IMG/VR virus record: IMGVR_UViG_3300013121_000012
Span: 21,427 to 85,426 of that record
Origin: a virus
Taxonomy: Duplodnaviria; Heunggongvirae; Uroviricota; Caudoviricetes
DNA: 64,000 nt
Reading direction: 5' to 3' (one strand)
Of the stretch, positions 14,225-63,119 are shown piece after piece (within the stretch, counting starts at the first letter, position 1; every line of letters starts with the position of its first letter). The translations under genes were made by a program, and so were the position numbers. The notes under the pieces are model-generated. The model was not told where the DNA came from. It did not search any database and saw nothing but the letters and a program-made list of their open reading frames with translations.

Positions 14225-15313
14225 ATGGCAAACACAAAGCGAGTTTTTATATCACTTGGAGGTGCGGGAAATAACATCCTTGATTCCATCCAAAAGGAGA
14301 CTAGTCTGATTCATGATCATGATGATGCAGTCTATATCAACTTTGCAAAGACCGATATATCGGATAAGAGCAAAGGACAAAAGTGTGTCTTAGATGCTGG
14401 CGGAACTGGACGAGATCCAAACGTCGGTAAAAAGATGGCACAAGAAAATCTTCCAAAGATTGAAAACTTTCTTAAAGCTGTTCTTAAGAAAACAACTTAC
14501 AATGAAATTATTGTCATCGCTTCTTTAGGTGGTGGTACTGGCGCATCTCTGTCGCCTTATGTCGTTGATCTCTTGAGAAATCAAGACATTCCTATTTCAG
14601 TATTCTCTGTGTTGCCTTCTACTAAAGAGGGCGTCAGTACTATGCCTAACGCGATTAAAGCGTTCATGAATATCTATAACAACTACGTGTTGTACGATAA
14701 ACTCAACTCATTCTTCTTATTTGATAATGAGTTCTATGAAAAGTTCGGGAATTACGATTCATTCGACTTCAGAAATATCAATATAGAGATTGCAAAAACA
14801 ATCGAAGAGATTCTTGATGAATCAAAGGTTGCACGCAACTCACAAGGCTATCAATCGCTTGACGTTAATGAACGTAAGCGTGTGTTCTTTTGGGGTAAAG
14901 GTATCAGCGATTATTGCAAGATTCCTCTTAAGAAAGATACGAAAGCTGAAGATGTACGGTATGCATCATACATCTACTCAGACAAATACAAAACAACAAC
15001 AGCAAAAGCAGTCGCAGCACAGGTTCTCTTTAGAAATGGAGTTACGACAGCCGAGAATAATGGGCTTGTTGAAAAAGCAAATGAAATTCTTGGCATGCTT
15101 AAGAAGAATTTCAAAAATTCAGCATTTTACTTTGGTTACACGTTCGATAACAACGAGCTTGAATCAGACATTGAAATACGTCTGATTGTAAGCGGACTTG
15201 ATGTTCCTAAGAGCTTCACATCCGATGCAAAGAAAGCGAGCAAGAGCGTAGGTAAACTCAAAGAAGAAAATCACGACTTCGCAATTACTGATGACATCGA
15301 TCTCAATTTCTAA
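14225..15313 (+). CDS. tubulin/FtsZ-like GTPase (PhuZ/TubZ-like)
   Basis: N-terminal SLGGAGNNI (FtsZ GGGxGNN-like box) and SLGGGTGASLS (tubulin signature GGGTG[ST]). Confidence 0.6.
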   Translation: MANTKRVFISLGGAGNNILDSIQKETSLIHDHDDAVYINFAKTDISDKSKGQKCVLDAGGTGRDPNVGKKMAQENLPKIENFLKAVLKKTTYNEIIVIASLGGGTGASLSPYVVDLLRNQDIPISVFSVLPSTKEGVSTMPNAIKAFMNIYNNYVLYDKLNSFFLFDNEFYEKFGNYDSFDFRNINIEIAKTIEEILDESKVARNSQGYQSLDVNERKRVFFWGKGISDYCKIPLKKDTKAEDVRYASYIYSDKYKTTTAKAVAAQVLFRNGVTTAENNGLVEKANEILGMLKKNFKNSAFYFGYTFDNNELESDIEIRLIVSGLDVPKSFTSDAKKASKSVGKLKEENHDFAITDDIDLNF

Positions 15314-33770: not shown

Positions 33771-33858
33771 CCTCCTGTGGTGTAATGGCAGCACAACGGA
33801 TTTATATCCCGTCGCACCAGATTAGTGGTTTGTGAAGGTTCGATTCCTTCCAGGAGGA
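33771..33858 (+). tRNA. class-II (long variable arm) tRNA, anticodon unresolved
   Basis: Acceptor cctcctg/caggagg, T-arm gaagg-TTCGATT-ccttc, variable-arm hairpin acca/tggt. The anticodon region has an irregular 9-nt loop. Confidence 0.45.
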
Positions 33859-33939
33859 CATGAGTTTGAAAACGACAATAACAGTCGCTTTGAAGATGAA
33901 ATTAAATTGTAGTAGTCGACATTGTTCAAACTCACAAAT

Positions 33940-35340: not shown

Positions 35341-35742
35341 GGGGGCGCATTTGGCTTCGATTGTCCTGTTTGAAAACAAATTCTCAGTCGAGGAGTGTGC
35401 CTCGTAAAAAACAACAAAGCATATAAATGCAGAAAAGAAAGAAGGTAAACTACTCGTTGGAAACTTTGGTGCTACACCAGTTTCTCGTGGCGTAGTTGCC
35501 GCACTCGCAGCTTAATTTTAAGTTGCAAGAAACCCACAAGAGTTCGGTAGTGGTGTTTCTCCTTACAGAACTAAGAGATAAGAAAACGACGAAGGTTCTT
35601 ATTTATGAAAATTTCAGATTCGCCGAAGCCACCGACGCTTGTGTCTTATGTAGGTGAGCAGGAACAGTCAATAAGACTCTAAACTGTAAGATGAATCTGT
35701 TTTACAAGGGGTAAGACAGGGGTTCGATTCCCCTCGCCTCCA
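35341..35742 (+). ncRNA. ssrA: tmRNA (ssrA-like)
   Basis: 5' GGGGGCG pairs with 3' CGCCUCC-A and gives a G3·U70 pair (Ala identity). A T-arm agggg-TTCGATT-cccct lies next to the 3' end. The 5' region GGCTTCGATTGTCC resembles the tmRNA GGATTCGACGGG block. An internal reading frame ends ...GVVAALAA-TAA, a typical degradation tag. Confidence 0.65.
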
Positions 35743-35867
35743 CAAAGAATGTTTTTAACCATAGGCGGATCTCCGTTTATGAATCTCGCTATGACGGATA
35801 GCGATCACATCACTGAGCAGTTACAGTAATGTCGAGAAGTTAGAAGCCAACATCCGTCAGCAATATT

Positions 35868-38656: not shown

Positions 38657-39799
38657 ATGCAAGTTGACTTAAAGAAGATCGAACAATACGTTGCCTCTGG
38701 CAAAGTATCAAAGCGCAAACACCCAACACTCCCTTTGAATATCTACACATATTCGAAGTTAACTGAAATCAATAACGAGTGGGATGAAATCACAGCTATG
38801 TGCCGAGGATTAATTCTCGACTTAAACGGAAACGTTGTCGGAAATCCATGGCCAAAGTTTTTCAACATTGAACAAACTGGCGGATCAGCGCACATTAAGA
38901 AATTATGGTCGCATCCAGAAATTGGACACGATGTAATCAAACATAAGGGAACTGAATACAAGATTCCAGCGGTTGACTATGTTGCTTATGAAAAAATGGA
39001 CGGATCAATCCTCTATGGTTGCCGTTATTTTGACCAAATGGTCTTAGCATCAAAGGGTTCGTTCGAATCTGATCAAGTAAAAGTTGGAGAAAAAATCCTT
39101 AAGGAAAAGTACCCAACATTTATGGTGCCAGAAGGACATACGTTCATCTGGGAAATCATTTATCCAGCGAACCGGATAGTTGTTGACTACGGCGATATGT
39201 GCGATCTAGTTCTTTTAGGTATCCGTAATACGGATCTTAATATGGACTGGTTCGGATATAAAGAATCGTGGCTCAAAATCTTTCCACGACCAACTGTTTA
39301 CGAAAAGACAATTGAAGAACTTCTCGTTGAAAAAGACCGCAAGGACTTCATCAACAAAGAAGGATTCGTAATCCATTTTGAAAATGGCGAAAAGGTTAAG
39401 ATTAAGTATGAAGCTTATTTTGATCTTCACAAGATAATGACTAACGTCACATCAAAGGATATTCTCGAAGCTCTTGAAAAGGGCGACTCAGTCGTTGCTT
39501 TCTGCGAGCAAAAGGATATTCCAGATGAAATGCTTGATGAAATCAAAGCAGTCGAAAAGGACTTTATCAATCGCTACGCCAAAATCGAAGAAGATTGCAA
39601 GTACTATTTGTCTGTTGCTCTCGATAAGAGAGAACGTAAAGCTCAAGCAAAGAACGTCATGGAGTTTACTCCTGAGAATTTACGAGGAATCGTATTCGCT
39701 ATGCTCGACAATAAGGATTATTCAAAGATGATCTTTACTCTGTTGAAGATTGACGAAAAGATGAATCGCAAATTTATTGGAAAAGCAGGAGCGTCGTAA
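38657..39799 (+). CDS. RNA ligase, Rnl1 (T4 RnlA-like) family
   Basis: CRGLILDLNGNVVGNPWPKFFNIEQTG parallels T4 Rnl1 CRGIMFE...PMEKFFNLNENP. RBS aggagg. Confidence 0.75.
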   Translation: MQVDLKKIEQYVASGKVSKRKHPTLPLNIYTYSKLTEINNEWDEITAMCRGLILDLNGNVVGNPWPKFFNIEQTGGSAHIKKLWSHPEIGHDVIKHKGTEYKIPAVDYVAYEKMDGSILYGCRYFDQMVLASKGSFESDQVKVGEKILKEKYPTFMVPEGHTFIWEIIYPANRIVVDYGDMCDLVLLGIRNTDLNMDWFGYKESWLKIFPRPTVYEKTIEELLVEKDRKDFINKEGFVIHFENGEKVKIKYEAYFDLHKIMTNVTSKDILEALEKGDSVVAFCEQKDIPDEMLDEIKAVEKDFINRYAKIEEDCKYYLSVALDKRERKAQAKNVMEFTPENLRGIVFAMLDNKDYSKMIFTLLKIDEKMNRKFIGKAGAS

Positions 39800-43620: not shown

Positions 43621-44679
43621 ATGGAATGGAAAGTATACAAAAGCAAAGTTGAAGTCTTTCCTCATAAAGGGGCAGACAAACTAGAACTCGTAAAAGCGGG
43701 ACTATATCAGTTCGTCACGCAAAAAGGACTATATAAAACAGGCGACGATGCATTCGTTATACCTGAGAAAAGTGTTCTACCAGATGCCCTAAAACCGCAT
43801 TGGGAACAGTTCCTGAAAGGACCGGATAAAAACCGCGTAGGTTCTATTCGTCTCAGAAATGAAGCATCTCAAGGAATTCTGCTTTCAATGGACAAAGCAA
43901 AAGAAATATTTGCTGACATCGAAACAGCGGAATATGGAACGGACGTAAGTGAATTCCTCGGAATTACAAAATACGAACCACCAATTCCTCCACAATTCGC
44001 CGGTCAAATGAAACCACTTCAAGGAGAGAAACACTTCTTCGATTGTACTCATTTCAGTATCTATGAAAATGAATTCAGAGAAGAGGACGATGTTATCGTC
44101 ACAGAGAAACTTCACGGAACACAATGTAACTATCAATATAACATCCTTACTGGCGAAGAACAAATCACATCGAAAGGATTACTTCAAAAAGATATTTGCA
44201 TTGTTGAAAATCCAGACAACATTTACTGGAGGGCAATCCGTGAAAGCAAAGTAAAAGAATGGATCGACGAATGGATCTCATGTCTTCCTGCCGGAGATGA
44301 ATTCAAAAAAGTTCAAATAACTGGAGAAGTTATTCCGTGTCAAAAAGGATATTCTTATGGTCTAACGAAACCAAAGTTCTTCATTTTTAACATTGCAGTA
44401 TGGGAAGTTGATGAATCATTTTCAACGTGGTTCCCGGATGAAGATGAGATACTTCCATTCGACAAAGCTCCAATTCTTTTCGCTGGAAAATATGCTGATG
44501 TTTGTTACAGACTCCAAGAGATGTGCGAAGGAATGGAAACGGTTTCTGGAAAAGGATTACACATCCGCGAAGGAATCGTTGTTCGTCCAGTTCCAGATCG
44601 CAGAACACATTCTGGTGAATGGCTTCGTTTGAAAGTCATCAATCCAAAATACAAAGAGGATGGAGAAGAGTTGTCATGA
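43621..44679 (+). CDS. ATP-dependent RNA/DNA ligase-family nucleotidyltransferase (Rnl2-like motifs)
   Basis: TEKLHGTQ (motif I, KxHG as in Rnl2 KIHGTN), EGIVVRP (motif IV) and WLRLKVINPKYK (motif V). Confidence 0.45.
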   Translation: MEWKVYKSKVEVFPHKGADKLELVKAGLYQFVTQKGLYKTGDDAFVIPEKSVLPDALKPHWEQFLKGPDKNRVGSIRLRNEASQGILLSMDKAKEIFADIETAEYGTDVSEFLGITKYEPPIPPQFAGQMKPLQGEKHFFDCTHFSIYENEFREEDDVIVTEKLHGTQCNYQYNILTGEEQITSKGLLQKDICIVENPDNIYWRAIRESKVKEWIDEWISCLPAGDEFKKVQITGEVIPCQKGYSYGLTKPKFFIFNIAVWEVDESFSTWFPDEDEILPFDKAPILFAGKYADVCYRLQEMCEGMETVSGKGLHIREGIVVRPVPDRRTHSGEWLRLKVINPKYKEDGEELS

Positions 44680-45367: not shown

Positions 45368-45579
45368 TCAAAGCAATCAGAAGATGGTGGATAAAAACTG
45401 GAATCGACGCCTGTTACAAAGAATACGAAAATCTGAATCATTTTTGGAAGTTCGAATGTTCTAATTTTTTTAGAGGGCCACAATCGGCAAAAAGAAATCG
45501 TGTGCGAGCTCATCAATGGCAACATAGAATAGATGAAAGACTCGATAAACTCGAAGCAAAATTGAAGGAACTAAAATGA
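45364..45579 (+). CDS. hypothetical small protein
   Basis: Start trimmed. Confidence 0.3.
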   Translation: MIKAIRRWWIKTGIDACYKEYENLNHFWKFECSNFFRGPQSAKRNRVRAHQWQHRIDERLDKLEAKLKELK

Positions 45580-46379
45580 ATAACAGCAAAGACAGTCTCG
45601 GCGATCGCATGAAGGGATATGAAAATATCTGGAAGACAAAACTTCCACGTCGCCTTCCAATGATCATGAGAGTGGATGGAAAAGCATTTCACACATACAC
45701 TCGCGACTGTGAAAAACCATTCGATAAAAGACTTGCTGATCTTATGGATGCAACAGCGAAGCATCTTTGTGAGAATATCCAGGGTGCTCAGATCGCATAC
45801 GTTCAAAGTGATGAGATAACAATTCTCGTTCATGACTACAAGACTCTTCAGAGTGATGCGTGGTTCGATAAAGAACTTCAGAAGATGTGTTCAATCTCTG
45901 CGGCATTAGCAAGTACGTTCTTTACTGTTAATAGCCACAAATTGTGGAAATATGATGATGCAGATCTACCGTCTGGAATGAACAGAATCAAAACTGCTCT
46001 CTTTGATTCTCGTTGCTTCATTGTACCAGAACATGACGTTGTCAACAACTTTATTTGGAGACAGCAAGACGCAGTACGTAACAGCATTCAAATGCTTGCT
46101 CGTTCTCTTTACTCACACAACGAATGCAACAATAAAAATCAGGCGGCTCTTCAGGAGATGATTCACCAGAAAGGCCAAAACTGGAATGATGTTCCTACTG
46201 GCTTCAAACGTGGTCGCTGCGTATACAAGAAACCATTTTATGTTGTCAGCGATGAACGCATGCACGATGAAGATGTTGTACGCAACAAGTGGATTATCGA
46301 TTCAGAAATTCCTACGTTTACTGTTGACAGAGATTTTATAGGAAAATGGTTAGCAGTTAATGAGGAAAAAAATGATTGA
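45576..46379 (+). CDS. Thg1-like protein (tRNA-His guanylyltransferase family, 3'-5' nucleotidyltransferase)
   Basis: N-terminus DRMKGYE...PMIMRVDGKAFHTYT parallels the Thg1 RIDGKKFHEFS core, and SDEITILV parallels the Thg1 SDEYSF block. Confidence 0.65.
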   Translation: MNNSKDSLGDRMKGYENIWKTKLPRRLPMIMRVDGKAFHTYTRDCEKPFDKRLADLMDATAKHLCENIQGAQIAYVQSDEITILVHDYKTLQSDAWFDKELQKMCSISAALASTFFTVNSHKLWKYDDADLPSGMNRIKTALFDSRCFIVPEHDVVNNFIWRQQDAVRNSIQMLARSLYSHNECNNKNQAALQEMIHQKGQNWNDVPTGFKRGRCVYKKPFYVVSDERMHDEDVVRNKWIIDSEIPTFTVDRDFIGKWLAVNEEKND

Positions 46380-47071: not shown

Positions 47072-47216
47072 ATTACTTCATATTCTGGGTTTTTGCCCAG
47101 ACCGCTTCGCACATTTCAGTCTTACGACTCTTTTGTGTACAAACGAAATACTATTCACAATTTATTACTTGTGGCTTAAGTTCAGAACGTCCTTCTAGCC
47201 ACCAAAGGTGGTTAAA

Positions 47217-47879
47217 ATGAAACGTTACAAGTACCCAAAAACAATGCATTTTCCATGGTCGCCTGGTCTTCAGAACGACGACCGTATGCTTGAATCTGTC
47301 AATGTTTTTATAGGCAAAGAAGTCATCATTACTGAAAAGTTCGATGGCGAGAATACATCGATCTACGCAGATCATATTCATGCCAGGAGTTTAGACTCAC
47401 AGAATCATCCGAGCAGAAACTGGGTAAGAGCATTCGCTGCAAAATTTCAGCATCAGATACCAATTGATTGGAGAATCTGTGGAGAGAATATGTATGCGAT
47501 GCATTCTATTTTCTACAAATATCTGCCATCGTACTTTCTAGGATTCTCAATATGGGATGATAAGAATAACTGCTTACATTGGGATGAAACGATGAATTGG
47601 TTTCAAATGTTCGGAATAACACCCGTGAGACCGATCTATCGCGGAATCTTTGATGATAAACTAATTCAATCATTGATCATGGCAAATGGATCAGCGATTA
47701 TGGATGAAAACATGGAAGGATATGTTTGCAGAACGGTTGAAGGATTTCATTACGATGACTTCCAGAAATGCGTTGCGAAATATGTACGAAAAAACCATGT
47801 TCAGACAGATGAACATTGGATGAATAAGGAGATAGTTAAGAATGGCCTCGACACAAGATCAGAAATCAGCGGCAAGTGA
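47217..47879 (+). CDS. small RNA-ligase-family nucleotidyltransferase (PF09414-like)
   Basis: TEKFDGEN (motif I KxDG), EGYVCRT (motif IV) and VAKYVRKNH (motif V); RBS aaaggtgg. Confidence 0.5.
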   Translation: MKRYKYPKTMHFPWSPGLQNDDRMLESVNVFIGKEVIITEKFDGENTSIYADHIHARSLDSQNHPSRNWVRAFAAKFQHQIPIDWRICGENMYAMHSIFYKYLPSYFLGFSIWDDKNNCLHWDETMNWFQMFGITPVRPIYRGIFDDKLIQSLIMANGSAIMDENMEGYVCRTVEGFHYDDFQKCVAKYVRKNHVQTDEHWMNKEIVKNGLDTRSEISGK

Positions 47880-49290: not shown

Positions 49291-49992
49291 ATGCAAGAAG
49301 TATATGTGTATGCTTATCTTGATCCAAGAAAGAAATGCGCGCTAGAATATTCGAATGTTTGTTTCTTATATGAACCGTTTTATATAGGTCAAGGAATCGG
49401 CAATCGATACAAAAATCATCTGAATATAATTAATCACCACGAATGTAAAAGATCTAAACTCGAGTGGAAATTTAATCCAGAAAAATGCAAAATTCTTACC
49501 GATATTTACATAGAAACAAAATCTTATCCATTCATAGAAAAGATTGCAATATTAAAATCAAGAGATGAGGCGAATTTAGAAGAAGAAAAATATATAAATC
49601 TAATTAAAAGGAAAACTGACGGCGGATATTTGACAAACATACTTAAGAATCACCAAGTTGATAATTCCGTCAAAAAAGGAAAAACCCTAGAGGAATTGTA
49701 TGGAAAAGAAAAATCTGATGAAATAAAGAGAAAACTTTCTGTTAGCTCAAAAGCAATGTTATCTTCTCCTGAAATGAAAGAAAAAATTAAGGCTCTTCGT
49801 ACAGGAAAAACAAACCCAAAAGCTAGAAAAATATCTCAGTTTAATTTAGATGGGACATTTATAAAGGAATTTGAATACATAAATCAAGCTGTAAAAGAAT
49901 TGAATTTGATTCCTGCAGCAAAAAACGCAATCATAGGAGTGGCGAGAGGAAGAAGACATAAAGCGTACGGATTCATTTGGAAGTACTCATAA
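49291..49992 (+). CDS. GIY-YIG homing endonuclease
   Basis: VYVYAYLDP...YEPFYIGQGIGNRYKNH: a GIY-YIG N-terminal domain. Confidence 0.6.
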   Translation: MQEVYVYAYLDPRKKCALEYSNVCFLYEPFYIGQGIGNRYKNHLNIINHHECKRSKLEWKFNPEKCKILTDIYIETKSYPFIEKIAILKSRDEANLEEEKYINLIKRKTDGGYLTNILKNHQVDNSVKKGKTLEELYGKEKSDEIKRKLSVSSKAMLSSPEMKEKIKALRTGKTNPKARKISQFNLDGTFIKEFEYINQAVKELNLIPAAKNAIIGVARGRRHKAYGFIWKYS

Positions 49993-50177
49993 TGAGAAAA
50001 CTCCTAAAGAGAATTTCGCTTCCGTTTAAGATCTTGCATCATAAACATTCAATAGTCTACGAAGTTCCAGGAGTAAAGAAAAAGAAAATCAGCGCGCTTT
50101 GGTTAGTACTTATATCGTTCATCTATATCTTTGGCATCTTGTGGATGCAATATATCAATTGTGCAAGAACAATTTGA
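49977..50177 (+). CDS. small membrane protein
   Basis: TM segment. Confidence 0.3.
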   Translation: MEVLIMRKLLKRISLPFKILHHKHSIVYEVPGVKKKKISALWLVLISFIYIFGILWMQYINCARTI

Positions 50178-50199
50178 TACACGCACTATTAAAAAAAAC

Positions 50200-50514
50200 G
50201 AAAATTTTTATGCGAAATTTCGGTTTGTTGTAATATAATAGTAATATCGGAAGCGAGAAAAGAGCTACTTCGAATCAACTACAAACAGCTTTAAAAAGAA
50301 AACAATCTCTTTTCAATTTTTCTCCGAGATAATGCACGTCAGAAGACTGACAGCAAGGTAAGTGAGTTACTTCGGCCCTTAGTGGGCAATTTTTATTTGA
50401 AAAAAAATCCGGTTGGTGCGAATCCAGCAAAGATGGCGAAAGCCAGGGAGCAATCCCGCCTCACTCCAATTTCCTTCAGTCGAGTGCACCGTTCTCATAA
50501 TAAAGAAAAATTAA
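50200..50514 (+). ncRNA. candidate structured ncRNA upstream of the Ro60 gene (possible second Y-like RNA)
   Basis: A noncoding stretch with a -10-like element at ~50228 that ends at the intrinsic terminator at 50515. It contains GNRA-type hairpins (ggcgaaagcc) and a T-arm-like hairpin ttgg-TGCGAAT-ccag. Confidence 0.3.
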
Positions 50515-50540
50515 GGCTCCCAATGAGGAGCCTTTTTTAT
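50515..50540 (+). terminator. intrinsic terminator
   Basis: ggctcc-caatga-ggagcc + TTTTTTA. Confidence 0.65.
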
Positions 50541-50555
50541 TTTAGGAGTGACAAT

Positions 50556-52037
50556 ATGTCAAAGTTTAACAAGAAAACAAAAACAACAATCAAGCCAAAG
50601 GTCGTCGCCAATAAAGGCGGTGGTGTAGGCTTTGCGCAGAGTAAGGAAATGGAACTCGCTTCTATTTTGCTTACATCGTTCCTATCAGGGAACACACATG
50701 AATCAGAGTCAGCGCAAGAACAAAGAATCTCGAATCTCCTTGATTCGTTTGGCGATTCAAACTTCCCAGCGAAAGCTGCGGTGTTTGCTCGTAACGAATT
50801 CGGTATGCGTTCAGTTTCACACTTGATCGCGTCTGAAATCGGTGAAAGAGTTAAGGGAGCAGAATGGACAAAACGATTCTTTGAAAAGGTTGTTCGCCGT
50901 CCAGACGACATTACTGAAATTCTTTCACGCACACTCGCAGAACAAGGAACAGTTCCTAATGCGATGAAGAAAGGACTTGCAGCTTCTTTCTCTAAGTTCG
51001 ATGAGTACCAACTCGCGAAGTATAGAGGAGAAGGAAAAGCAGTTTCTTTGATTGACGCTGTCAATCTTCTTCACCCAACTCCAACAGCGAAAAACAAAAT
51101 CGCTCTCAAGAAATTGATTGCCGATAAGCTTCGTTCAAAGGAAACATGGGAATCAAAGATTTCTGAAACAGGAAAATCTGAGAATGTCGAAGAAGCTAAG
51201 ACGGAAGCTTGGGCAGATTTAATCACTTCCGAAAGAATTGGTTATCTCGCTCTTGTACGAAACCTCCGTAACATTCTCACAAGTGTTACTGATGTAGGCG
51301 TTATTGAAAAGGCTTGCGATATCCTTAAGGATAAGAACAAGTGCAAGAACAGTCTTATCTTCCCTTTCACTTTCTGGTCAGCGTACTTTGAAGTTGAAAG
51401 TATGTCACTCTCAAGTGTTACAAAGAAGCTTGTCATGAGCGCTTTGAACAAAGCACTTGAAATGTCATGTGACAACATCCCAGTATTCGAAGGACGAACA
51501 CTCGTTGCTATCGATTATTCTGGATCAATGGGTGGAACTGACATCTGCAACAAATTGAGCAATCGAGGCGTTGCATCATTGTTCGCTACTGTTCTCGCTA
51601 AGAAGAACCCAACATCTGACATCGTTATCTTCGGAGACGATTGCAAGTATGTTAAGAACTTCAACGCAGACGACAGCATCTTCACAAACCTAAAAAACTT
51701 GATGAAGAATAACCAATATGCGGGAGACAATACTGTTCATGTTGGTCACAGTACAAATTTCTATTCAATCTTCAATGCCGCAAAGCATAAGTATGATCGA
51801 ATCGTAATTTTCTCTGATATGCAAGCGAACTCTGGATATGGTTGGTCTGGACTAGAAGCATACAACAAGAAGTTTGACGTAAAGCCACTCATTATTGCTG
51901 TTGATCTTCAAGGCAACGGAACAACTCAGTTCAAGAAAGACTTCGTTCAAGTAGTCGGATGGTCTGAAAAGATTTTCGATCTTATGAAGAACGATGCTCA
52001 GACACTTGTCAACAGAATCAAAGCCATCGAGCTTTAA
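50556..52037 (+). CDS. rsr: Ro60 (TROVE domain + C-terminal vWA/MIDAS) ortholog, Rsr-like
   Basis: RBS ttaggagtgacaATG. The C-terminal vWA has LVAIDYSGSMGG (MIDAS DxSxS). An N-terminal ~350-aa helical region is typical of TROVE proteins. The length (493 aa) matches bacterial Rsr. Start trimmed from the track ORF. Confidence 0.65.
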   Translation: MSKFNKKTKTTIKPKVVANKGGGVGFAQSKEMELASILLTSFLSGNTHESESAQEQRISNLLDSFGDSNFPAKAAVFARNEFGMRSVSHLIASEIGERVKGAEWTKRFFEKVVRRPDDITEILSRTLAEQGTVPNAMKKGLAASFSKFDEYQLAKYRGEGKAVSLIDAVNLLHPTPTAKNKIALKKLIADKLRSKETWESKISETGKSENVEEAKTEAWADLITSERIGYLALVRNLRNILTSVTDVGVIEKACDILKDKNKCKNSLIFPFTFWSAYFEVESMSLSSVTKKLVMSALNKALEMSCDNIPVFEGRTLVAIDYSGSMGGTDICNKLSNRGVASLFATVLAKKNPTSDIVIFGDDCKYVKNFNADDSIFTNLKNLMKNNQYAGDNTVHVGHSTNFYSIFNAAKHKYDRIVIFSDMQANSGYGWSGLEAYNKKFDVKPLIIAVDLQGNGTTQFKKDFVQVVGWSEKIFDLMKNDAQTLVNRIKAIEL

Positions 52038-52064
52038 AAAAGACTGAAAAGTCCGCTATTAAAA

Positions 52065-52090
52065 GCGTCCCTCCGTGGACGCTTTTTTTA
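52065..52090 (+). terminator. intrinsic terminator
   Basis: gcgtcc-ctccgt-ggacgc + TTTTTTTA. Confidence 0.65.
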
Positions 52091-52093
52091 TGC

Positions 52094-52122
52094 TCATGCG
52101 CCATTTACAAGTTTTCACTTAA
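52094..52122 (+). promoter_or_regulatory. sigma70-like promoter CGCCATTTACAA-N17-TATAAT driving the downstream ncRNA
   Basis: Near-identical to the promoter at 28210. Confidence 0.55.
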
Positions 52123-52129
52123 GTGTTAT

Positions 52130-52370
52130 AATAAAGCACTTCCGGAAAAGAGGGCGCCCCTCTGGAACGGAAGGAGAAACTGCGGGGTAGCCCAATATGG
52201 TAGAGGCATCGGCGTGAAAGCCGAAACAGTGTTGGTTCGATTCCAATCCTCATGGCTTTCGAAGGTTTTGCGGGAACAACGCCCGCAGTTTCCTAACAAA
52301 AAACTGGACGGATGCGAAGTGAATTTCATGCATGGTTTACAGATTAAACCAGCTGACTTTTTACCAATTT
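52130..52370 (+). ncRNA. Y RNA-like ncRNA (YrlA-like), core helix 52176..52292
   Basis: gaaactgcgggg...cccgcagtttc forms a ≥11-bp terminal helix that encloses a D-arm-like gtagcccaatatggtagagg and a T-arm gttgg-TTCGATT-ccaat. It is followed by a hairpin ggttta-caga-ttaaacc and a T-rich tract. Confidence 0.5.
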
Positions 52371-52619
52371 TTCAATGCCAGTAAAAATGGTGACTTTTAT
52401 CTCGACCTCTGTTGGAATAGTAAACCGCCGGTCGTGAGGGTTTTAGCAGTATTTGTCGCAATGAACACAAAATCTGCCATATATTCTCGGATTTCGAGTC
52501 TAATGTAAGTAGGCGACCGTAATAACGCATCGCTCCTTTTAGATAAGATTCCGGATCTTGGATTTCGAACTGATCATTTGAGATTGTTTCAAATTCGAGA
52601 ATATTTTGCAATCATACCA

Positions 52620-52648
52620 TTTACAAGAAAACGAATAAAGATTATAAT
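52620..52648 (+). promoter_or_regulatory. sigma70-like promoter CCATTTACAA-N17-TATAAT
   Basis: Upstream of the 52659 ORF, followed by RBS aaggag. Confidence 0.5.
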
Positions 52649-52658
52649 AAGGAGCAAA

Positions 52659-52883
52659 ATGGAAACAAAGTTCAAAGTCGGACAAAAAGTCTTCGTGATG
52701 ATCGACAACAAGATCGCTGTCGACACAGTCAAAACTGCGAACATCGCTCCAGGCACAGACGTTGGAATTTATCGCTTAAAAAGCACGAAATCCAATTCTC
52801 AGAAATACTATTTTGATGGAGATCTTTTTCAGAATGAGCAATTGCTCGTTGACATGCTTCTCATGAATATCAAGGAGAGATAA
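52659..52883 (+). CDS. hypothetical small protein
   Basis: Start trimmed to the ATG after the RBS. Confidence 0.35.
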   Translation: METKFKVGQKVFVMIDNKIAVDTVKTANIAPGTDVGIYRLKSTKSNSQKYYFDGDLFQNEQLLVDMLLMNIKER

Positions 52884-53224: not shown

Positions 53225-53445
53225 TAGAAGTAGTTTACATCGGCGATAAATTCTATGGAGATTCTGGGACGATGATGTCTTCAATCTACAAAAAAGAAGG
53301 AAAAAAATACACTCGATTTGATTGGGGGTTTTTGCAAATCGCACTAGCAAATGGCGAAAATGTGAAAATCCGTCAAGCTAATCGTAAAGAAATGCTTCAT
53401 TTCAAAACGATGCTCGCTGATCATATACTGAAAAAACAAAAATAG
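53221..53445 (+). CDS. hypothetical protein
   Basis: ORF. Confidence 0.3.
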   Translation: MIEVVYIGDKFYGDSGTMMSSIYKKEGKKYTRFDWGFLQIALANGENVKIRQANRKEMLHFKTMLADHILKKQK

Positions 53446-53514
53446 GTTCCATATATAGTGGCAATTGTTTCCGCTGTCTACGGAAACACCGGGGTTCGAT
53501 TCCCCGTGGAACCG
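53445..53514 (+). tRNA. tRNA-Asp (GUC), short
   Basis: Acceptor ggttcca/tggaacc, anticodon arm ttccg-cuGUCua-cggaa, T-arm cgggg-TTCGATT-ccccg. Confidence 0.5.
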
Positions 53515-53536
53515 CACTAAAAATCTGGAGGGATAT

Positions 53537-59863: not shown

Positions 59864-59955
59864 TCCGCGGTACACTAATTGGTAAGTGACCTCACTGTTA
59901 ATGAGACGTAAATCCCTTCGGGGAATATATAGAGGTTCGAGCCCTCTCTGCGGAG
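59864..59955 (+). tRNA. class-II-sized tRNA with Asn-type anticodon loop cuGUUaa and a 24-nt extra arm capped by UUCG
   Basis: Acceptor tccgcgg/ctgcgga, D-arm cact/agtg, T-arm agagg-TTCGAGC-cctct, extra arm atccc-ttcg-gggaat. Confidence 0.4.
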
Positions 59956-59958
59956 CAA

Positions 59959-62005: not shown

Positions 62006-62095
62006 GCGGGAGAGGCTACTATTGGTTCTGTGGCGTTCGTCTGTAAAACGAAACCCTCCGGGTAAAGATTGTGTGTTCGATTCACACCTTCCGCA
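62006..62095 (+). tRNA. tRNA-Tyr (GUA), class II
   Basis: Acceptor gcgggag/cttccgc, anticodon arm ttcgt-cuGUAaa-acgaa, a long variable arm, T-arm gtgtg-TTCGATT-cacac. Confidence 0.6.
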
Positions 62096-62392
62096 CAGTG
62101 ATATTTAAGATTCTCTAATCGCGAAGAAATGCGGAGAACGCCGAGAATGTACGAAATATCAGACCGAATTTAACCTTTTGACTGGTCGCCTTTCGCAGGT
62201 TTCATCGTTAAAGAAAAGGCATCGAAGAGAATGGAGTAATTAACCATTGCTCTTCAATGGAGTGGTCGTCTGCGGCCTAACAGTTCGTCTTGAAAACGAA
62301 TACGGTACCAATGTGTACGGGGATCGACACCTCACCACTCCGCAGCTCATGTGCCAAGTGTACAAGGAGCATAGAATTCGTTAGCAATGACG

Positions 62393-62519: not shown

Positions 62520-63062
62520 ATGGAACAGTTTGTTAAATGTCTAAAAGATGATTGTGAAAACACTCTGACTTTAGAGAAAGTTAAGCGCGGAACAAAATTT
62601 TGTTCTCGATCTTGTGGAATTTCACATGGAAATACCATTAGACAAAAAGCTCCCACGATTGTTCACTGTGATAGTTGTGGAAATAAAATTGAAGGGCCGA
62701 ATTTTTGGCTCAACGGAAAGCTTAAATTCAAAAACAAATTCTGTAATGATACTTGCAGAAGAGATTTTGATAATAAGAAAAAGATTTCTTTGGTCGAATC
62801 TGGAAAAGCAACCGATAACGACAGAAGAGTTTTGAAAGAATACTTGGAAAACAAAGAAGGACACAAATGCAAAATTTGTGGAATTACTGATTGGTTAGGA
62901 AAACCTTTGATAATGATCTTAGATCATATTGATGGTCATTCTGAAAACAATGAACTGTCTAATTTAAGACTAGTTTGTTCGAATTGTGATTCGCAACTCG
63001 ATACATATAAAGCTAGAAATAAAGGAAACGGAAGAAAGAATAGAAAAGCTCTGCAAGCATAA
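62520..63062 (+). CDS. HNH homing endonuclease
   Basis: ICGITDWLGKPLIMILDHIDGHSENNELSNLRLVCSNCD; Cys-rich N-terminus. Confidence 0.65.
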   Translation: MEQFVKCLKDDCENTLTLEKVKRGTKFCSRSCGISHGNTIRQKAPTIVHCDSCGNKIEGPNFWLNGKLKFKNKFCNDTCRRDFDNKKKISLVESGKATDNDRRVLKEYLENKEGHKCKICGITDWLGKPLIMILDHIDGHSENNELSNLRLVCSNCDSQLDTYKARNKGNGRKNRKALQA

Positions 63063-63119
63063 ATGGCGATGCACCGGTCTTGTAAATCGGGGAACGGGAT
63101 TCGATTTCTCGGCGGAGCA
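63048..63119 (+). tRNA. tRNA-Thr (UGU)
   Basis: Acceptor gctctgc/gcggagc, D-arm gcat/atgc, anticodon arm ccggt-cuUGUaa-atcgg, T-arm cggga-TTCGATT-tctcg. It overlaps the last codons of the HNH ORF. Confidence 0.55.

What the first reader, a model, noticed from the sequence alone, without database searches (positions are those of the whole stretch)
50190..52400. Phage-encoded Ro60 (TROVE-vWA) ortholog in its own transcription unit flanked by structured ncRNAs
The trimmed ORF 50556..52037 encodes a ~493-aa protein with a C-terminal vWA/MIDAS motif (AIDYSGSMGG) and a long N-terminal helical region, which is the architecture of bacterial Rsr/Ro60. In bacteria, Ro60 acts as an RNA-quality-control ring that is tethered by Y RNAs, and rsr loci are typically adjacent to Y-RNA genes and sometimes to RNA-repair genes. 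Here the gene sits between two intrinsic terminators, with noncoding stretches on both sides that carry their own promoters. A Ro/Y-RNA module embedded in a phage that also carries tRNA repair enzymes, a tmRNA and large tRNA arrays would be an unusual, coherent 'RNA surveillance' package.
Basis: partly seen in the sequence, partly recalled or inferred. Interest (0 to 1): 0.9.

Follow-up and report, generated by a model that had tools for sequence, protein, structure and literature searches.

The report
Phage Ro60 gene with Y RNAs
A giant phage carries a genuine Ro60 RNA-binding ring protein preceded by two small partner "Y RNAs", an arrangement already known from other phages and bacteria, so this is a clear new example and not a new kind of system.

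Summary
ORF 50556..52037 (+) is a true Ro60/Rsr ortholog: it passes the curated cut-offs for TROVE and for the Ro60-type vWA domain, has a complete MIDAS motif, and its predicted structure matches only Ro60 structures over its full length. The window is a jumbo myovirus-type phage with RNA ligases, Thg1, a tmRNA and more than 20 tRNAs.

They are two tandem modules upstream: a hairpin type at 50247-50327 and a type with a T-arm at 50328-50496. A covariance model built only from 50 unrelated Ro60-adjacent RNAs recognises both. They are the best-conserved part of the locus.

No room for a promoter separates them from rsr. The gene is therefore read through the terminator at 50513-50542 and is not its own transcription unit.

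It has a 5-6-nt "anticodon" loop and no Ro-binding motif, so its link to Ro60 is unproven. A further structured RNA (52391-52616) follows it.

Phage Ro60 with Y RNAs was described in 2014, 2021 and 2025, so this is a new member of a known kind. Interest is modest.

The parts
50205..50239 (+). Conserved putative promoter block of the Y-RNA/rsr operon (-10 TATAAT at 50234-50239; weak -35)
   Evidence: The block is nearly invariant in all six loci, while the sequence further upstream diverges. The sigma-70 scan did not call it, so its function as a promoter is inferred.
50247..50327 (+). Y RNA module 1 (hairpin type, like YrlB/Yrn2). 5' strand: UCGGAAGCGAGAAAAGAG-CUACUUCGAA. Then a variable loop. 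3' strand: CUCUUUUCAAUUUUUCUCCGA.
   Evidence: Model R1, built from 50 independent Ro60-adjacent RNAs, scores 34.0 bits (E about 2e-7) at 50239-50342 with filters off. The stems are conserved around a variable loop in six relatives. The YTACWTC motif is at 50265.
50328..50496 (+). Y RNA module 2 (YrlA-like). The closing stem is GACUGA(C)AGCAAGG..GUGAG-UUACUUCG paired with CUCAC..CCAAUUUCCUUCAGUC. Inside it lie a GCCC/GGGC hairpin, an A/U hairpin, a T-arm (50412-50428), an acceptor-like hairpin UGGC-GAAA-GCCA (50434-50445), and GGGA-GCAA-UCCC (50446-50457) where YrlA has its D-arm.
   Evidence: This is the top hit of R1 and the only full-length hit in the 64-kb window: 50339-50494, 27.2 bits, E 2.5e-4. 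RNAalifold on six relatives predicts 69 pairs for the whole upstream transcript, both Y modules and the terminator included, five of them with compensatory changes. Together with module 1 it is 86-93% identical in nucleotides across relatives, against 75-78% for the rsr CDS in the four more distant ones.
50513..50542 (+). Intrinsic terminator between the Y RNAs and rsr (hairpin plus U-run)
   Evidence: Found by the terminator scan. The stem shows compensatory changes among relatives. The same Y RNA, terminator, rsr order occurs in L084 and in phage csAssE-Sib.
50556..52037 (+). rsr: Ro60 ortholog (TROVE HEAT-repeat ring plus vWA domain with MIDAS residues D320, S322, S324, T400, D421), 493 aa
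   Evidence: Pfam TROVE and vWA_Ro60 both exceed their cut-offs. It matches PHROG 850. 2863 homologs were found. The best PDB sequence match is Thermus phage phiLo Ro60, E 6e-21. The AF2 model has pLDDT 86.8, and the top 13 Foldseek hits are all Ro60, with TM 0.73 to 1YVP. The MIDAS columns are invariant in A4.
52061..52093 (+). Intrinsic terminator ending the rsr transcript
   Evidence: Found by the terminator scan. It is conserved, with compensatory changes, in the relatives.
52103..52132 (+). Phage promoter ATTTACA-N17-TATAAT driving the downstream ncRNA(s)
   Evidence: Matches 11 of 12 consensus positions and has an extended -10 TG. The class occurs 5 times in the window, all on the + strand, against 0.05 expected. 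It is invariant in six loci.
52139..52287 (+). tRNA-shaped ncRNA. It has a 5' hairpin (52139-52173) and a cloverleaf with an extended acceptor helix (52176-52260). The D and T loops are intact and the 'anticodon' loop is the 6-nt GUGAAA. A UUCGAA linker and a 3' hairpin (52269-52287) follow.
   Evidence: ARAGORN calls it 'tRNA-???'. Rfam tRNA gives 27.5 bits, below the cut-off of 29. The orthologous elements receive different or no 'anticodons'. The cloverleaf forms standard pairs in 86.5% of cells, against 29-48% when the partners are slid, and 12 of 25 pairs show compensatory changes. R1 matches only its T-arm.
52391..52616 (+). Further conserved structured RNA of unknown class. A 16-bp long-range helix (52481-52497 with 52589-52604) encloses three hairpins.
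   Evidence: RNAalifold predicts 35 pairs, 13 with compensatory changes. The forward strand folds at -24.6 kcal/mol against -11.8 for the reverse. There is no Rfam hit and no homolog in IMG/VR.

Best explanation
This is a phage copy of the Ro60/Y-RNA ribonucleoprotein module.

**Expression.** One transcript starts near 50240. It carries two tandem Y RNAs: module 1, a plain hairpin type, and module 2, a YrlA-like type with a T-arm. An intrinsic terminator at 50513-50542 stops most transcripts, giving abundant small RNAs. The fraction that reads through is the rsr mRNA.

**Assembly.** The Ro60 ring binds the conserved bulged stem formed by the 5' and 3' ends of each Y RNA. That stem pairs GGNAGYGAG...UUACUUCG with ...AAUUUUCUCC.

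**Function.** The distal part of the Y RNA (the T-arm domain) tethers or gates another factor. By analogy with Deinococcus, Salmonella and Thermus phage phiLo, that factor is most likely the host 3'-5' exoribonuclease PNPase. During infection the particle would then redirect or restrain degradation of structured RNA, next to the phage's tRNA, tmRNA and RNA-ligase genes.

**Shown here:** the identity of the protein, the family membership and conservation of the two upstream RNAs, and the operon layout.

**Inferred:** partial termination, binding between Ro60 and the Y RNAs, and the effector.
For: **Protein**
- TROVE at 66 bits and vWA_Ro60 at 30.5 bits both exceed their Pfam cut-offs.
- The MIDAS residues are invariant in 24 homologs.
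- The AF2 model (pLDDT 86.8, pTM 0.84) matches Ro60 structures only, over its full length.

**Y RNAs**
- The 7-mer YTACWTC is about 10-fold enriched in the 400 nt upstream of Ro60 on the same strand in 160 independent loci. It occurs there in 63 of 80 viral and 45 of 80 genomic loci.
- 50 such RNAs share a structure in which 26 of 31 pairs show compensatory changes.
- Model R1, built without any sequence from this clade, finds 50339-50494 as the only full-length hit in the window (27.2 bits, E 2.5e-4). With filters off it also finds 50239-50342 (34.0 bits).
- As a positive control, R1 hits immediately upstream of the annotated Ro-like genes of Gordonia phage Neville (60.6 bits) and phage csAssE-Sib (73 and 40 bits).
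- The Y region is the most conserved segment of the locus: 86-93% nucleotide identity, against 75-78% for the CDS in the four more distant relatives.

**Layout**
- No promoter-like site lies between the terminator and the ATG. The gap is about 20 nt and holds only the ribosome-binding site.
- The order Y RNAs, terminator, rsr recurs in L084 and csAssE-Sib.

**Literature**
- Two or more Y RNAs upstream of rsr, processed from one precursor, one with a tRNA-like part and one a long hairpin (PMC4201824).
- A phage Ro60 binds upstream Y-like RNAs and host PNPase (PMC12135203).
- Highly transcribed ncRNAs lie upstream of an Rsr homolog in a Listeria phage (PMC12282133).
Against: - The CM scores for module 2 are modest (18.8-27.2 bits), and E-values from the shortened calibration are rough.
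- Module 2 has a GNRA hairpin where YrlA has its D-arm. Its T-loop reads UGCGAAU in the window (G in place of the U that becomes pseudouridine 55), although relatives L001 and L005 have a canonical UUCGAUU loop.
- The published 5'-strand motif GNCGAAN0-1G is not matched exactly in either closing stem.
- Rfam 15 gave no Y-RNA hit. It gave none for the positive-control phages either.
- No expression, binding or effector data exist for this phage. The host is unknown, so whether it has PNPase cannot be checked.
- The upstream promoter is not called by the consensus scan.
Confidence: 0.82

Rival explanations
1. The 300-nt upstream RNA is mainly a cis-acting leader or attenuator of rsr. On this reading, a riboswitch-like or protein-dependent structure decides whether the 50513-50542 terminator forms, and no trans-acting small RNAs are made.
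For: The RNA lies directly 5' of rsr and ends in an intrinsic terminator about 20 nt before the start codon. There is no intervening promoter. Its sequence conservation is extreme. Autoregulation by Ro60 binding to its own leader would be a natural circuit.
Against: Both modules match a model built from RNAs that in many loci are not followed by a terminator. No alternative antiterminator pairing with the terminator stem is predicted in the consensus fold. In M. smegmatis, Y RNAs in the same position are processed into stable Rsr-bound RNAs (PMC4201824). The two roles do not exclude each other.
Confidence: 0.1
2. One reading: the downstream tRNA-shaped RNA (52176-52292) is the Y RNA that tethers Ro60.
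For: It is tRNA-like, as bacterial Y RNAs are. It lies on the same strand about 100 nt after rsr and is retained at that position in all six clade members. Its 6-nt 'anticodon' loop recalls D. radiodurans Yrn1 (PMC4201824). Its cloverleaf is closed by an extended helix in place of free acceptor ends.
Against: It has no GGNAGYGAG...UUACUUCG / UUUUCUCC frame, and R1 matches only its T-arm at 10.9 bits. It has its own promoter after the rsr terminator. The Y-RNA motif shows no enrichment downstream of Ro60 in 160 other loci, and ARAGORN finds no odd-loop tRNA-like call there. In the closest relative, L004, it has been swapped (59% identity against 91% for rsr).
Confidence: 0.12
3. The downstream tRNA-shaped RNA is independent of Ro60. 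It would be a tRNA mimic or decoy made by the phage, for example to bind or divert host tRNA-directed nucleases, modification enzymes or RNase P. Alternatively it is a decaying tRNA gene within the phage's tRNA-rich region.
For: The tRNA elbow is intact (G18G19 and the T-loop UUCGAUU), but the loop of 5-6 nt has G where U33 should be and varies among orthologs. Its sequence turns over quickly while the fold is kept. It has its own strong promoter. The phage invests heavily in tRNA repair. Phage Ro60 genes often sit in tRNA arrays.
Against: A pseudogene would not keep an invariant promoter and compensatory changes in all four arms. There is no direct evidence for any target. Adjacency to rsr is conserved in the clade.
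Confidence: 0.55
4. The protein is a generic vWA protein and not Ro60.
For: The N-terminal part of the TROVE profile aligns weakly in the single-sequence Pfam scan; the best stretch covers only residues 191-292.
Against: The TROVE score is almost three times the cut-off and the Ro60-specific vWA family is matched. The sequence aligns over its full length to phage phiLo Ro60. The predicted fold matches Ro60 structures over its full length at TM 0.73, whereas plain vWA proteins cover only about 200 residues.
Confidence: 0.01

Closest known systems
Bacterial Rsr (Ro60) with YrlA/YrlB or Yrn1/Yrn2 Y RNAs (D. radiodurans, S. Typhimurium, M. smegmatis; Chen et al. 2013, 2014)
   Same: It has a TROVE plus vWA ring protein. 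Two Y RNAs lie on the same strand next to the gene, one a plain hairpin and one carrying tRNA-like elements. As in M. smegmatis, they lie upstream and are co-transcribed. The Ro-binding site is a stem formed by the 5' and 3' ends.
   Different: Module 2 keeps the T-arm and the acceptor-like hairpin but has a GNRA hairpin in place of the D-arm, plus two extra hairpins. The 5'-strand motif is the variant GGNAGYGAG/ACAGCAAGG, not GNCGAAN0-1G. An intrinsic terminator separates the Y RNAs from rsr. There is no rtcBA operon or RtcR control; other RNA ligases and Thg1 lie nearby.
Thermus phage phiLo Ro60 with Yrl1/Yrl2 (Hu et al. 2025; PDB 9KOP, 9L5Y)
   Same: Both are phage-encoded Ro60 proteins. 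phiLo Ro60 is the best match by sequence among solved structures (E 6e-21, about 27% identity). It also has two Y-like RNAs directly upstream of the gene. In phiLo, binding to host PNPase has been shown.
   Different: The phiLo Yrl RNAs were defined by a CGAA motif and are not recognised by model R1. Here the Y RNAs belong to the widespread UUACUUCG class. The host and temperature regime are unknown.
YrlA-type RNAs upstream of Ro60 in mycobacteriophages, Gordonia phages and crAss-like phages
   Same: The position, strand and closing-stem motifs are the same. The order Y RNAs, terminator, rsr is the same as in csAssE-Sib. R1 hits all of them.
   Different: Those RNAs carry a complete tRNA-like domain with a canonical D-arm and score 40-105 bits. 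The window's modules score 19-34 bits.
TROVE proteins in jumbo-phage RNA-repair gene sets (Iyer et al. 2021)
   Same: This is a jumbo phage in which the TROVE protein sits alongside Rnl-family RNA ligases and other RNA-end-healing genes, tRNAs and a tmRNA.
   Different: That survey did not describe the phage Y RNAs. Here they are mapped.

Membership tests
Ro60 / Rsr (TROVE-vWA ring proteins) | TROVE (HEAT-repeat) domain above the curated threshold | tested here: met
   PF05731 scores 66.2 bits against a cut-off of 23. PHROG 850 gives E 1.5e-36.
Ro60 / Rsr (TROVE-vWA ring proteins) | C-terminal Ro60-type vWA domain with a MIDAS motif (DxSxS...T...D) | tested here: met
   PF25045 scores 30.5 bits against a cut-off of 27.7. 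D320, S322, S324, T400 and D421 are invariant in 24 homologs.
Ro60 / Rsr (TROVE-vWA ring proteins) | Ring-shaped alpha-helical-repeat fold closed by the vWA domain | tested here: met
   The AF2 model has pLDDT 86.8 and pTM 0.84. The top 13 Foldseek PDB hits are all Ro60 and full-length, with TM 0.73 to Xenopus Ro 1YVP and 0.64-0.68 to phiLo Ro60. This is a predicted structure, not a solved one.
Ro60 / Rsr (TROVE-vWA ring proteins) | Binds Y RNA on the outer surface and misfolded RNA ends in the central hole | not testable with these tools
   Needs EMSA, pull-down or a structure.
Bacterial/phage Y RNA (YrlA class) | Encoded within about 4 kb of the Ro60 gene on the same strand | tested here: met
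   Modules at 50247-50327 and 50328-50496 lie 60-310 nt upstream of rsr on the + strand.
Bacterial/phage Y RNA (YrlA class) | Long stem formed by the 5' and 3' ends that carries the Ro60-binding site | tested here: met
   In both R1 alignments the closing-stem pairs are almost all standard: none is flagged in module 2, and one pair, the outermost, in module 1. The stem shows covariation in the 50-sequence family, with 15 of 15 closing-stem pairs having compensatory changes. It is conserved in six relatives.
Bacterial/phage Y RNA (YrlA class) | Published 5'-strand motif GNCGAAN0-1G | tested here: not met
   The exact motif is absent from both closing stems. It occurs only as GGCGAAAG in the acceptor-like hairpin loop at 50435-50442. 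The stems carry GGAAGCGAG and ACAGCAAGG. These fit the variant consensus GG(Y)AG(Y)GAG / GCAGCAAG seen in 50 independent Ro60-adjacent RNAs.
Bacterial/phage Y RNA (YrlA class) | T-arm (5-bp stem, 7-nt T-loop) | tested here: met
   Module 2 has GUUGG-UGCGAAU-CCAGC at 50412-50428. L001 and L005 have a canonical UUCGAUU loop. Module 1 has none, as expected for the hairpin type.
Bacterial/phage Y RNA (YrlA class) | [quoted passage not shown] | tested here: met
   UGGC-GAAA-GCCA at 50434-50445, with a compensatory GC-to-AU change in L005. At 4 bp it is shorter than typical.
Bacterial/phage Y RNA (YrlA class) | D-arm with conserved G18G19-type loop (UAGCUCAGUGGUAGAGC) | tested here: not met
   The D-arm position holds GGGA-GCAA-UCCC, a tetraloop hairpin at 50446-50457. 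Module 2 is therefore YrlA-like in layout but is not a full tRNA mimic.
Bacterial/phage Y RNA (YrlA class) | Match to an independent covariance model of the family | tested here: met
   R1 gives 27.2 bits (E 2.5e-4) for module 2 as the top window hit, and 34.0 bits for module 1 with filters off. Rfam 15 gave no Y-RNA hit here or in the control phage loci.
Transfer RNA (for the downstream element 52181-52256) | 7-nt anticodon loop with U33 and an anticodon conserved among orthologs | tested here: not met
   The loop is 5-6 nt (GUGAAA, GUGAA or GUGGA), with G at the U33 position when it is read as a 7-nt loop. ARAGORN calls differ across orthologs: ???, ???, Ser, Pro, Pyl, none. Rfam tRNA gives 27.5 bits, below the cut-off of 29.
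Transfer RNA (for the downstream element 52181-52256) | Cloverleaf with D-loop and T-loop elbow nucleotides | tested here: met
   86.5% of cells pair and 12 of 25 pairs show compensatory changes. GG in the D-loop and UUCGAUU in the T-loop are conserved.

The most novel reading that the evidence does not exclude
The promoter-driven transcript downstream of rsr holds a 5' hairpin, a tRNA-shaped domain with a closed, extended acceptor helix and a 5-6-nt GUGAA loop, and the structured block at 52391-52616. On the most novel reading, this is an undescribed phage ncRNA that works with the Ro60 particle. It could be a third, motif-less partner supplying the complete tRNA elbow that Y module 2 has lost. 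Or it could be a decoy that draws host tRNA-cleaving defence nucleases onto an RNA that the neighbouring repair and surveillance genes handle. Its cassette-like exchange between close relatives would then reflect an arms race.
Probability: 0.15. Interest if true: 0.6.

Novelty: new member of a known kind. Interest (0 to 1): 0.3.

Why it matters
This locus adds a clearly mapped Ro60/Y-RNA operon from an uncultured jumbo phage. It also yields three points of wider use.
1. Ro60-adjacent Y RNAs in phages and in many bacteria (Saprospiraceae, Verrucomicrobia) share a closing-stem signature, GG(Y)AG(Y)GAG...UUACUUCG / ...UUUUCUCC. A simple model built on it finds them reliably. Rfam 15 returned no Y-RNA hit for any of them.
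2. The order Y RNAs, terminator, rsr recurs in unrelated phages. This suggests the small RNAs are deliberately made in excess over the protein.
3. Some tRNA genes annotated next to phage Ro60 genes are really the tRNA-like domains of Y RNAs.

None of this changes how Ro60 is understood. The practical value is better annotation, plus a compact candidate system for testing what phage Ro60 does during infection.

Tried and rejected
- **Rfam 15.** The whole window at gathering thresholds and 49950-52700 at E up to 10 gave no Y-RNA, riboswitch or T-box hit. The only hits were a sub-threshold tRNA and terminator look-alikes. Rfam also gave no Y-RNA hit in the control phage loci, so its silence carries no weight.
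- **DNA similarity to GenBank phages.** blastn of the locus found nothing.
- **Exact 16-mers of the upstream RNA in IMG/VR.** Only chance hits, including tRNA 5' ends.
- **Single-protein scan of IMG/VR.** No close relative found.
- **15-mer of block 3 in IMG/VR.** 69 hits, all chance by blastn.
- **In-frame N-terminal extension.** I considered that the extension of the ORF from GTG 50382 might be coding. I rejected this because relatives carry indels that are not multiples of three and the terminator lies inside it.
- **Similarity to human Y1 RNA.** The 5' strand resembles human Y1 (AAGGUAGUGAGUUAUCUC, recalled from memory). I treat this as unverified and do not use it as evidence.
The 52178-87/52283-92 stem is not conserved in relatives. 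A different, conserved extension of the acceptor helix replaces it.
- **Odd tRNA-like elements downstream of Ro60 as a general feature.** They are not one.
- **P0012 locus.** Its DNA could not be fetched.
- **A review of the field (PMC10870794).** Not held in the library.


Full report
**1. The observation**

ORF 50556..52037 (+) encodes 493 aa, contains VAIDYSGSMGG, and is preceded by an AGGAG ribosome-binding site at 50544-50548. Terminator-like hairpins followed by T-runs lie at 50513-50534 and 52061-52086.

A near-consensus promoter lies at 52103-52132. Its form, ATTTACA-N17-TATAAT, occurs five times in the window, always on the + strand, against 0.05 expected by chance.

Upstream, only a conserved TATAAT (50234-50239) with a poor -35 is visible. 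The scan did not call it.

The window is phage DNA. It encodes:
- a tail sheath and a PhuZ-like tubulin;
- SbcCD, thymidylate synthase and a DNA ligase;
- three RNA-ligase-family ORFs (38657-39799, 43621-44679, 47208-47879);
- a Thg1-like enzyme (45576-46379);
- a tmRNA and 21-23 tRNAs.

**2. The protein is Ro60**

- Pfam TROVE scores 66.2 bits (cut-off 23) and the Ro60-specific vWA family scores 30.5 bits (cut-off 27.7).
- The protein matches PHROG 850, annotated "RNA-binding protein".
- 2863 homologs were found. One is 95% identical, four are 72-78% identical, and the rest of the 120 best listed are 42-49% identical.
- The best sequence match among solved structures is the Ro60 of Thermus phage phiLo, full-length, E 6e-21.
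- An AlphaFold2 model built on a 24-sequence alignment has pLDDT 86.8 and pTM 0.84.
- Its 13 best Foldseek matches in the PDB are all Ro60 or Rsr structures over the full length: Xenopus 1YVP at TM 0.73, phiLo 9KOP, and D. radiodurans 2NVO. Plain vWA proteins follow, covering only about 200 residues.
- The MIDAS residues D320, S322, S324, T400 and D421 are invariant in the alignment.

The "generic vWA" alternative is excluded.

**3. Phage Ro60 is not new**

tblastn finds a homolog in 99 GenBank phage records, including crAss-like, Vibrio, Streptomyces, Gordonia, Xanthomonas, Rhizobium and haloarchaeal viruses. The best is an uncultured 635-kb phage at 43% identity.

Earlier work already covers this ground:
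- Chen et al. 2014 reported YrlA RNAs within 4 kb of Ro60, on the same strand, in 254 bacteria and 22 phages (PMC4201824).
- Iyer et al. 2021 noted TROVE proteins in jumbo phages in the context of RNA repair (PMC7824862).
- Hu et al. 2025 solved phiLo Ro60. They showed it binds two upstream Y-like RNAs and host PNPase (PMC12135203).
- A 2025 Listeria phage study saw highly transcribed ncRNAs upstream of an Rsr homolog (PMC12282133).

**4. The flanks in close relatives**

Five independent metagenomic relatives (L001, L002, L004, L005, L007) keep gene-free gaps of about 380-530 nt upstream and 580-680 nt downstream of rsr.

Aligning them shows that the upstream gap, from about 50235 to the terminator, is almost invariant. 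It is 86-93% identical in nucleotides. The rsr CDS is 75-78% identical in the four more distant relatives. The small ORF just upstream is 47-79% identical across the five relatives.

Indels that are not multiples of three, and the terminator itself, rule out coding in this region. RNAalifold predicts 69 pairs, five with compensatory changes despite the low divergence.

**5. The upstream RNA is two tandem Y RNAs**

I fetched 160 further Ro60 loci, 35-46% identical to the window protein. Eighty came from IMG/VR phage contigs. Eighty came from bacterial genomes, mainly Saprospiraceae and Verrucomicrobia.

Most of them have one to three RNAs directly upstream, on the same strand, with a common frame:
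- a 5' strand, GG(Y)AG(Y)GAG followed by 5-8 nt of stem and then UUACUUCG;
- an effector domain;
- a 3' strand, the stem complement followed by AAUUUUCUCC.

The 7-mer YTACWTC occurs at 3.85 per kb (viral loci) and 2.03 per kb (genomic loci) in the 400 nt upstream on the + strand. Inside the gene, within 400 nt downstream and on the opposite strand of the upstream 400 nt it occurs at 0.07-0.42 per kb; more than 400 nt upstream on the + strand it is still about 1.0 per kb. It is present in 63 of 80 viral and 45 of 80 genomic loci.

Fifty non-redundant examples with the YrlA order (V, T-arm, acceptor-like hairpin, D-arm) align to a consensus of 31 pairs. Of these, 26 have compensatory changes, including every pair of the closing stem.

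A covariance model (R1) was built from these 50 sequences, none from the window's clade. Its results:
- **Window, default filters.** 50339-50494 is the best hit and the only full-length hit in the 64-kb window: 27.2 bits, E 2.5e-4. All other hits are tRNA fragments: single T-arms or D-arms, or a T-arm joined to the neighbouring tRNA's D-arm.
- **Window, filters off, 50000-52700.** It also finds 50239-50342 (34.0 bits, E about 2e-7) and 50343-50494 (18.8 bits).
- **Positive controls.** It hits directly upstream of the annotated Ro-like genes of Gordonia phage Neville (60.6 bits) and phage csAssE-Sib (73 and 40 bits).
- **Relatives.** It hits one of the two modules in each of the five clade relatives at 24-36 bits: module 2 in L001, L002, L004 and L005, and module 1 in L007.

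The upstream transcript therefore carries two modules.

*Module 1 (50247-50327).* UCGGAAGCGAGAAAAGAG-CUACUUCGAA, then a variable loop, then CUCUUUUCAAUUUUUCUCCGA. This is a plain hairpin Y RNA like YrlB or Yrn2.

*Module 2 (50328-50496).* The closing stem pairs GACUGA(C)AGCAAGG-UAA-GUGAG-UUACUUCG with CUCAC-UCCAAUUUCCUUCAGUC. It encloses:
- a GCCC/GGGC hairpin and an A/U hairpin;
- a T-arm (50412-50428);
- a UGGC-GAAA-GCCA hairpin in the acceptor-like position;
- a GGGA-GCAA-UCCC hairpin where YrlA has its D-arm.

Having two Y RNAs upstream of rsr, one with tRNA-like elements and one a hairpin, made from one precursor, is the arrangement described for M. smegmatis. It also fits the generalisation in Chen et al. 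2014.

Module 2 departs from canonical YrlA in three ways:
- It has no D-arm.
- Its T-loop is UGCGAAU in the window, though canonical in L001 and L005.
- The published GNCGAAN0-1G motif is replaced by a variant that is nevertheless the norm in the 50-sequence family.

**6. Operon layout**

Between the terminator's U-run (ending at 50542) and the ATG at 50556 there is only the ribosome-binding site. No promoter-like site was found anywhere between 50240 and 50556.

rsr must therefore be transcribed through the terminator, from the promoter of the Y RNAs or from further upstream. It is not a separate transcription unit.

The same order (Y RNAs, terminator, rsr) is seen in L084 and in csAssE-Sib. 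I infer that partial termination sets a high ratio of Y RNA to mRNA. Attenuation controlled by Ro60 is possible but untested.

**7. The downstream flank**

*The tRNA-shaped RNA.* The promoter at 52103-52132 is invariant in all six loci. It drives an RNA with these parts:
- a 5' hairpin (52139-52173);
- a tRNA-shaped domain (52176-52260);
- a UUCGAA linker;
- a 3' hairpin (52269-52287).

ARAGORN calls the domain "tRNA-???" and Rfam tRNA gives 27.5 bits, below the cut-off of 29. The orthologous elements are called ???, Ser(tga), Pro(tgg) and Pyl(cta), or are not called at all. The "anticodon" hairpin has a 5-6-nt GUGAA(A) loop with G in the U33 position.

The cloverleaf plus a 4-5-bp extension of the acceptor helix forms standard pairs in 86.5% of cells. 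The figure is 29-48% when the partners are slid, and 12 of 25 pairs have compensatory changes. This is a conserved tRNA mimic and not a decoding tRNA.

It lacks the Y-RNA closing-stem frame, and R1 sees only its T-arm. Its sequence turns over fast (44-77% identity). In the closest relative, L004, it has been exchanged for the L002-type version (59% identity against 91% for rsr).

The Y-RNA motif is not enriched in the 400 nt downstream of the other 160 Ro60 loci. ARAGORN finds only ordinary tRNA genes there, none with an odd loop. A functional link to Ro60 therefore rests on adjacency within one clade.

*Block 3.* Further downstream, 52391-52616 is a second conserved structured RNA on the + strand. 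A 16-bp helix (52481-52497 with 52589-52604) has several compensatory changes, and 13 of 35 predicted pairs covary. It has no Rfam match and no homolog in IMG/VR. No terminator separates it from the tRNA-shaped RNA, so the two may be one transcript. The next promoter of the same class follows at 52619-52648.

**8. Mechanism**

*Shown:* a Ro60 ortholog, two family-typical Y RNAs immediately upstream and co-oriented, and the operon layout.

*From established knowledge of the family:*
- Ro60 binds the 5' strand of the Y-RNA closing stem on its outer surface.
- The other end of the Y RNA tethers an effector, which is PNPase in Deinococcus and Salmonella.
- phiLo Ro60 with its Yrl RNAs binds host PNPase and slows it (PMC12135203).

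*Inferred for this phage:* the particle forms during infection and either specialises or restrains a host exoribonuclease. This would protect or cull structured RNAs while the phage expresses its own tRNAs, tmRNA and RNA-repair enzymes. The effector and the biological role are unknown.

**9. Verdict**

The finding is real and the central interpretation is correct. However, the Y RNAs were mislocated, the transcription-unit claim is wrong, and the system is already known in phages. It is a new member of a known kind, with a somewhat degenerate YrlA-type module. Next to it lie two unexplained, clade-specific structured RNAs, and these are the only part that could hold something new.

Noticed in passing
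window 52391-52616 (+): A conserved structured RNA of unknown class lies between the tRNA-shaped RNA and the next promoter. A 16-bp long-range helix (52481-52497 with 52589-52604) has compensatory changes in six loci. It has no Rfam hit and no homolog in IMG/VR.
   Followed up: partly
L035 (GenBank OR575929.1, phage csAssE-Sib) 2449-2885: Three tandem Y RNAs precede the annotated Ro60 gene and a terminator. The annotated 'tRNA-Tyr' (2624-2696) and 'tRNA-Lys' (2769-2842) lie inside Y-RNA closing-stem frames (GGUGAG..UUACUUCG ... UUUUCCUC). They are probably Y-RNA tRNA-like domains and not tRNA genes.
   Followed up: partly
L023 1784-1969; L025 2260-2390; also L062, L080, L107, L133, L147, L148, L150, L154, L167, L171, L183, L184, L190: This is a subclass of Ro60-adjacent RNAs. 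In it, UUACUUCG is followed by a tRNA-like domain in the normal D, anticodon-arm, T order, without an acceptor stem (Rfam tRNA partial matches 5-66). It occurs alongside the circularly permuted YrlA order and resembles D. radiodurans Yrn1.
   Followed up: partly
window 21473, 28209, 38608, 52103, 52619 (+): The promoter class ATTTACA-N17-TATAAT occurs five times, all on the + strand, against 0.05 expected. These are probably the phage's early, host-sigma-70-type promoters. They argue against a Bacteroidota-type host promoter, even though the closest bacterial Ro60 homologs are in Saprospiraceae.
   Followed up: partly
L004 2150-2330 versus window 52139-52300: In the closest relative (rsr 91% nucleotide identity), the tRNA-shaped RNA is only 59% identical and resembles the version in L002. 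This looks like cassette-like exchange of the element between related phages.
   Followed up: partly
window 49291-49992 versus L001/L002/L005 upstream genes: A GIY-YIG (homing-endonuclease-like) ORF lies upstream of the Y RNAs in the window and in L007. Relatives L001, L002 and L005 have CYTH and HD-domain genes at that position.
   Followed up: no
window 35341-35745 (+): The phage tmRNA (Rfam 106 bits) has an unusually long predicted tag peptide, AEKKEGKLLVGNFGATPVSRGVVAALAA.
   Followed up: no
window 63048-63119; 33771-33859; 59864-59956; 62006-62096 (+): Rfam calls a tRNA at 63048-63119 that ARAGORN misses. Three tRNA calls are unusually long at 89-93 nt (Ile-tat, Asn-gtt, Tyr-gta), which may indicate introns or long variable arms.
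   Followed up: no
window 53445-53515 (+): A tRNA-Asp(gtc) about 1 kb downstream of the locus is retained at the same relative position in the four relatives whose contigs reach that far (L001, L002, L004, L005). It overlaps mechanically listed ORFs on both strands.
   Followed up: no
window 14225-15313 (+): A PhuZ-like tubulin (PHROG 4733, E 8e-11) hints at a nucleus-forming or spindle-using jumbo phage.
   Followed up: no
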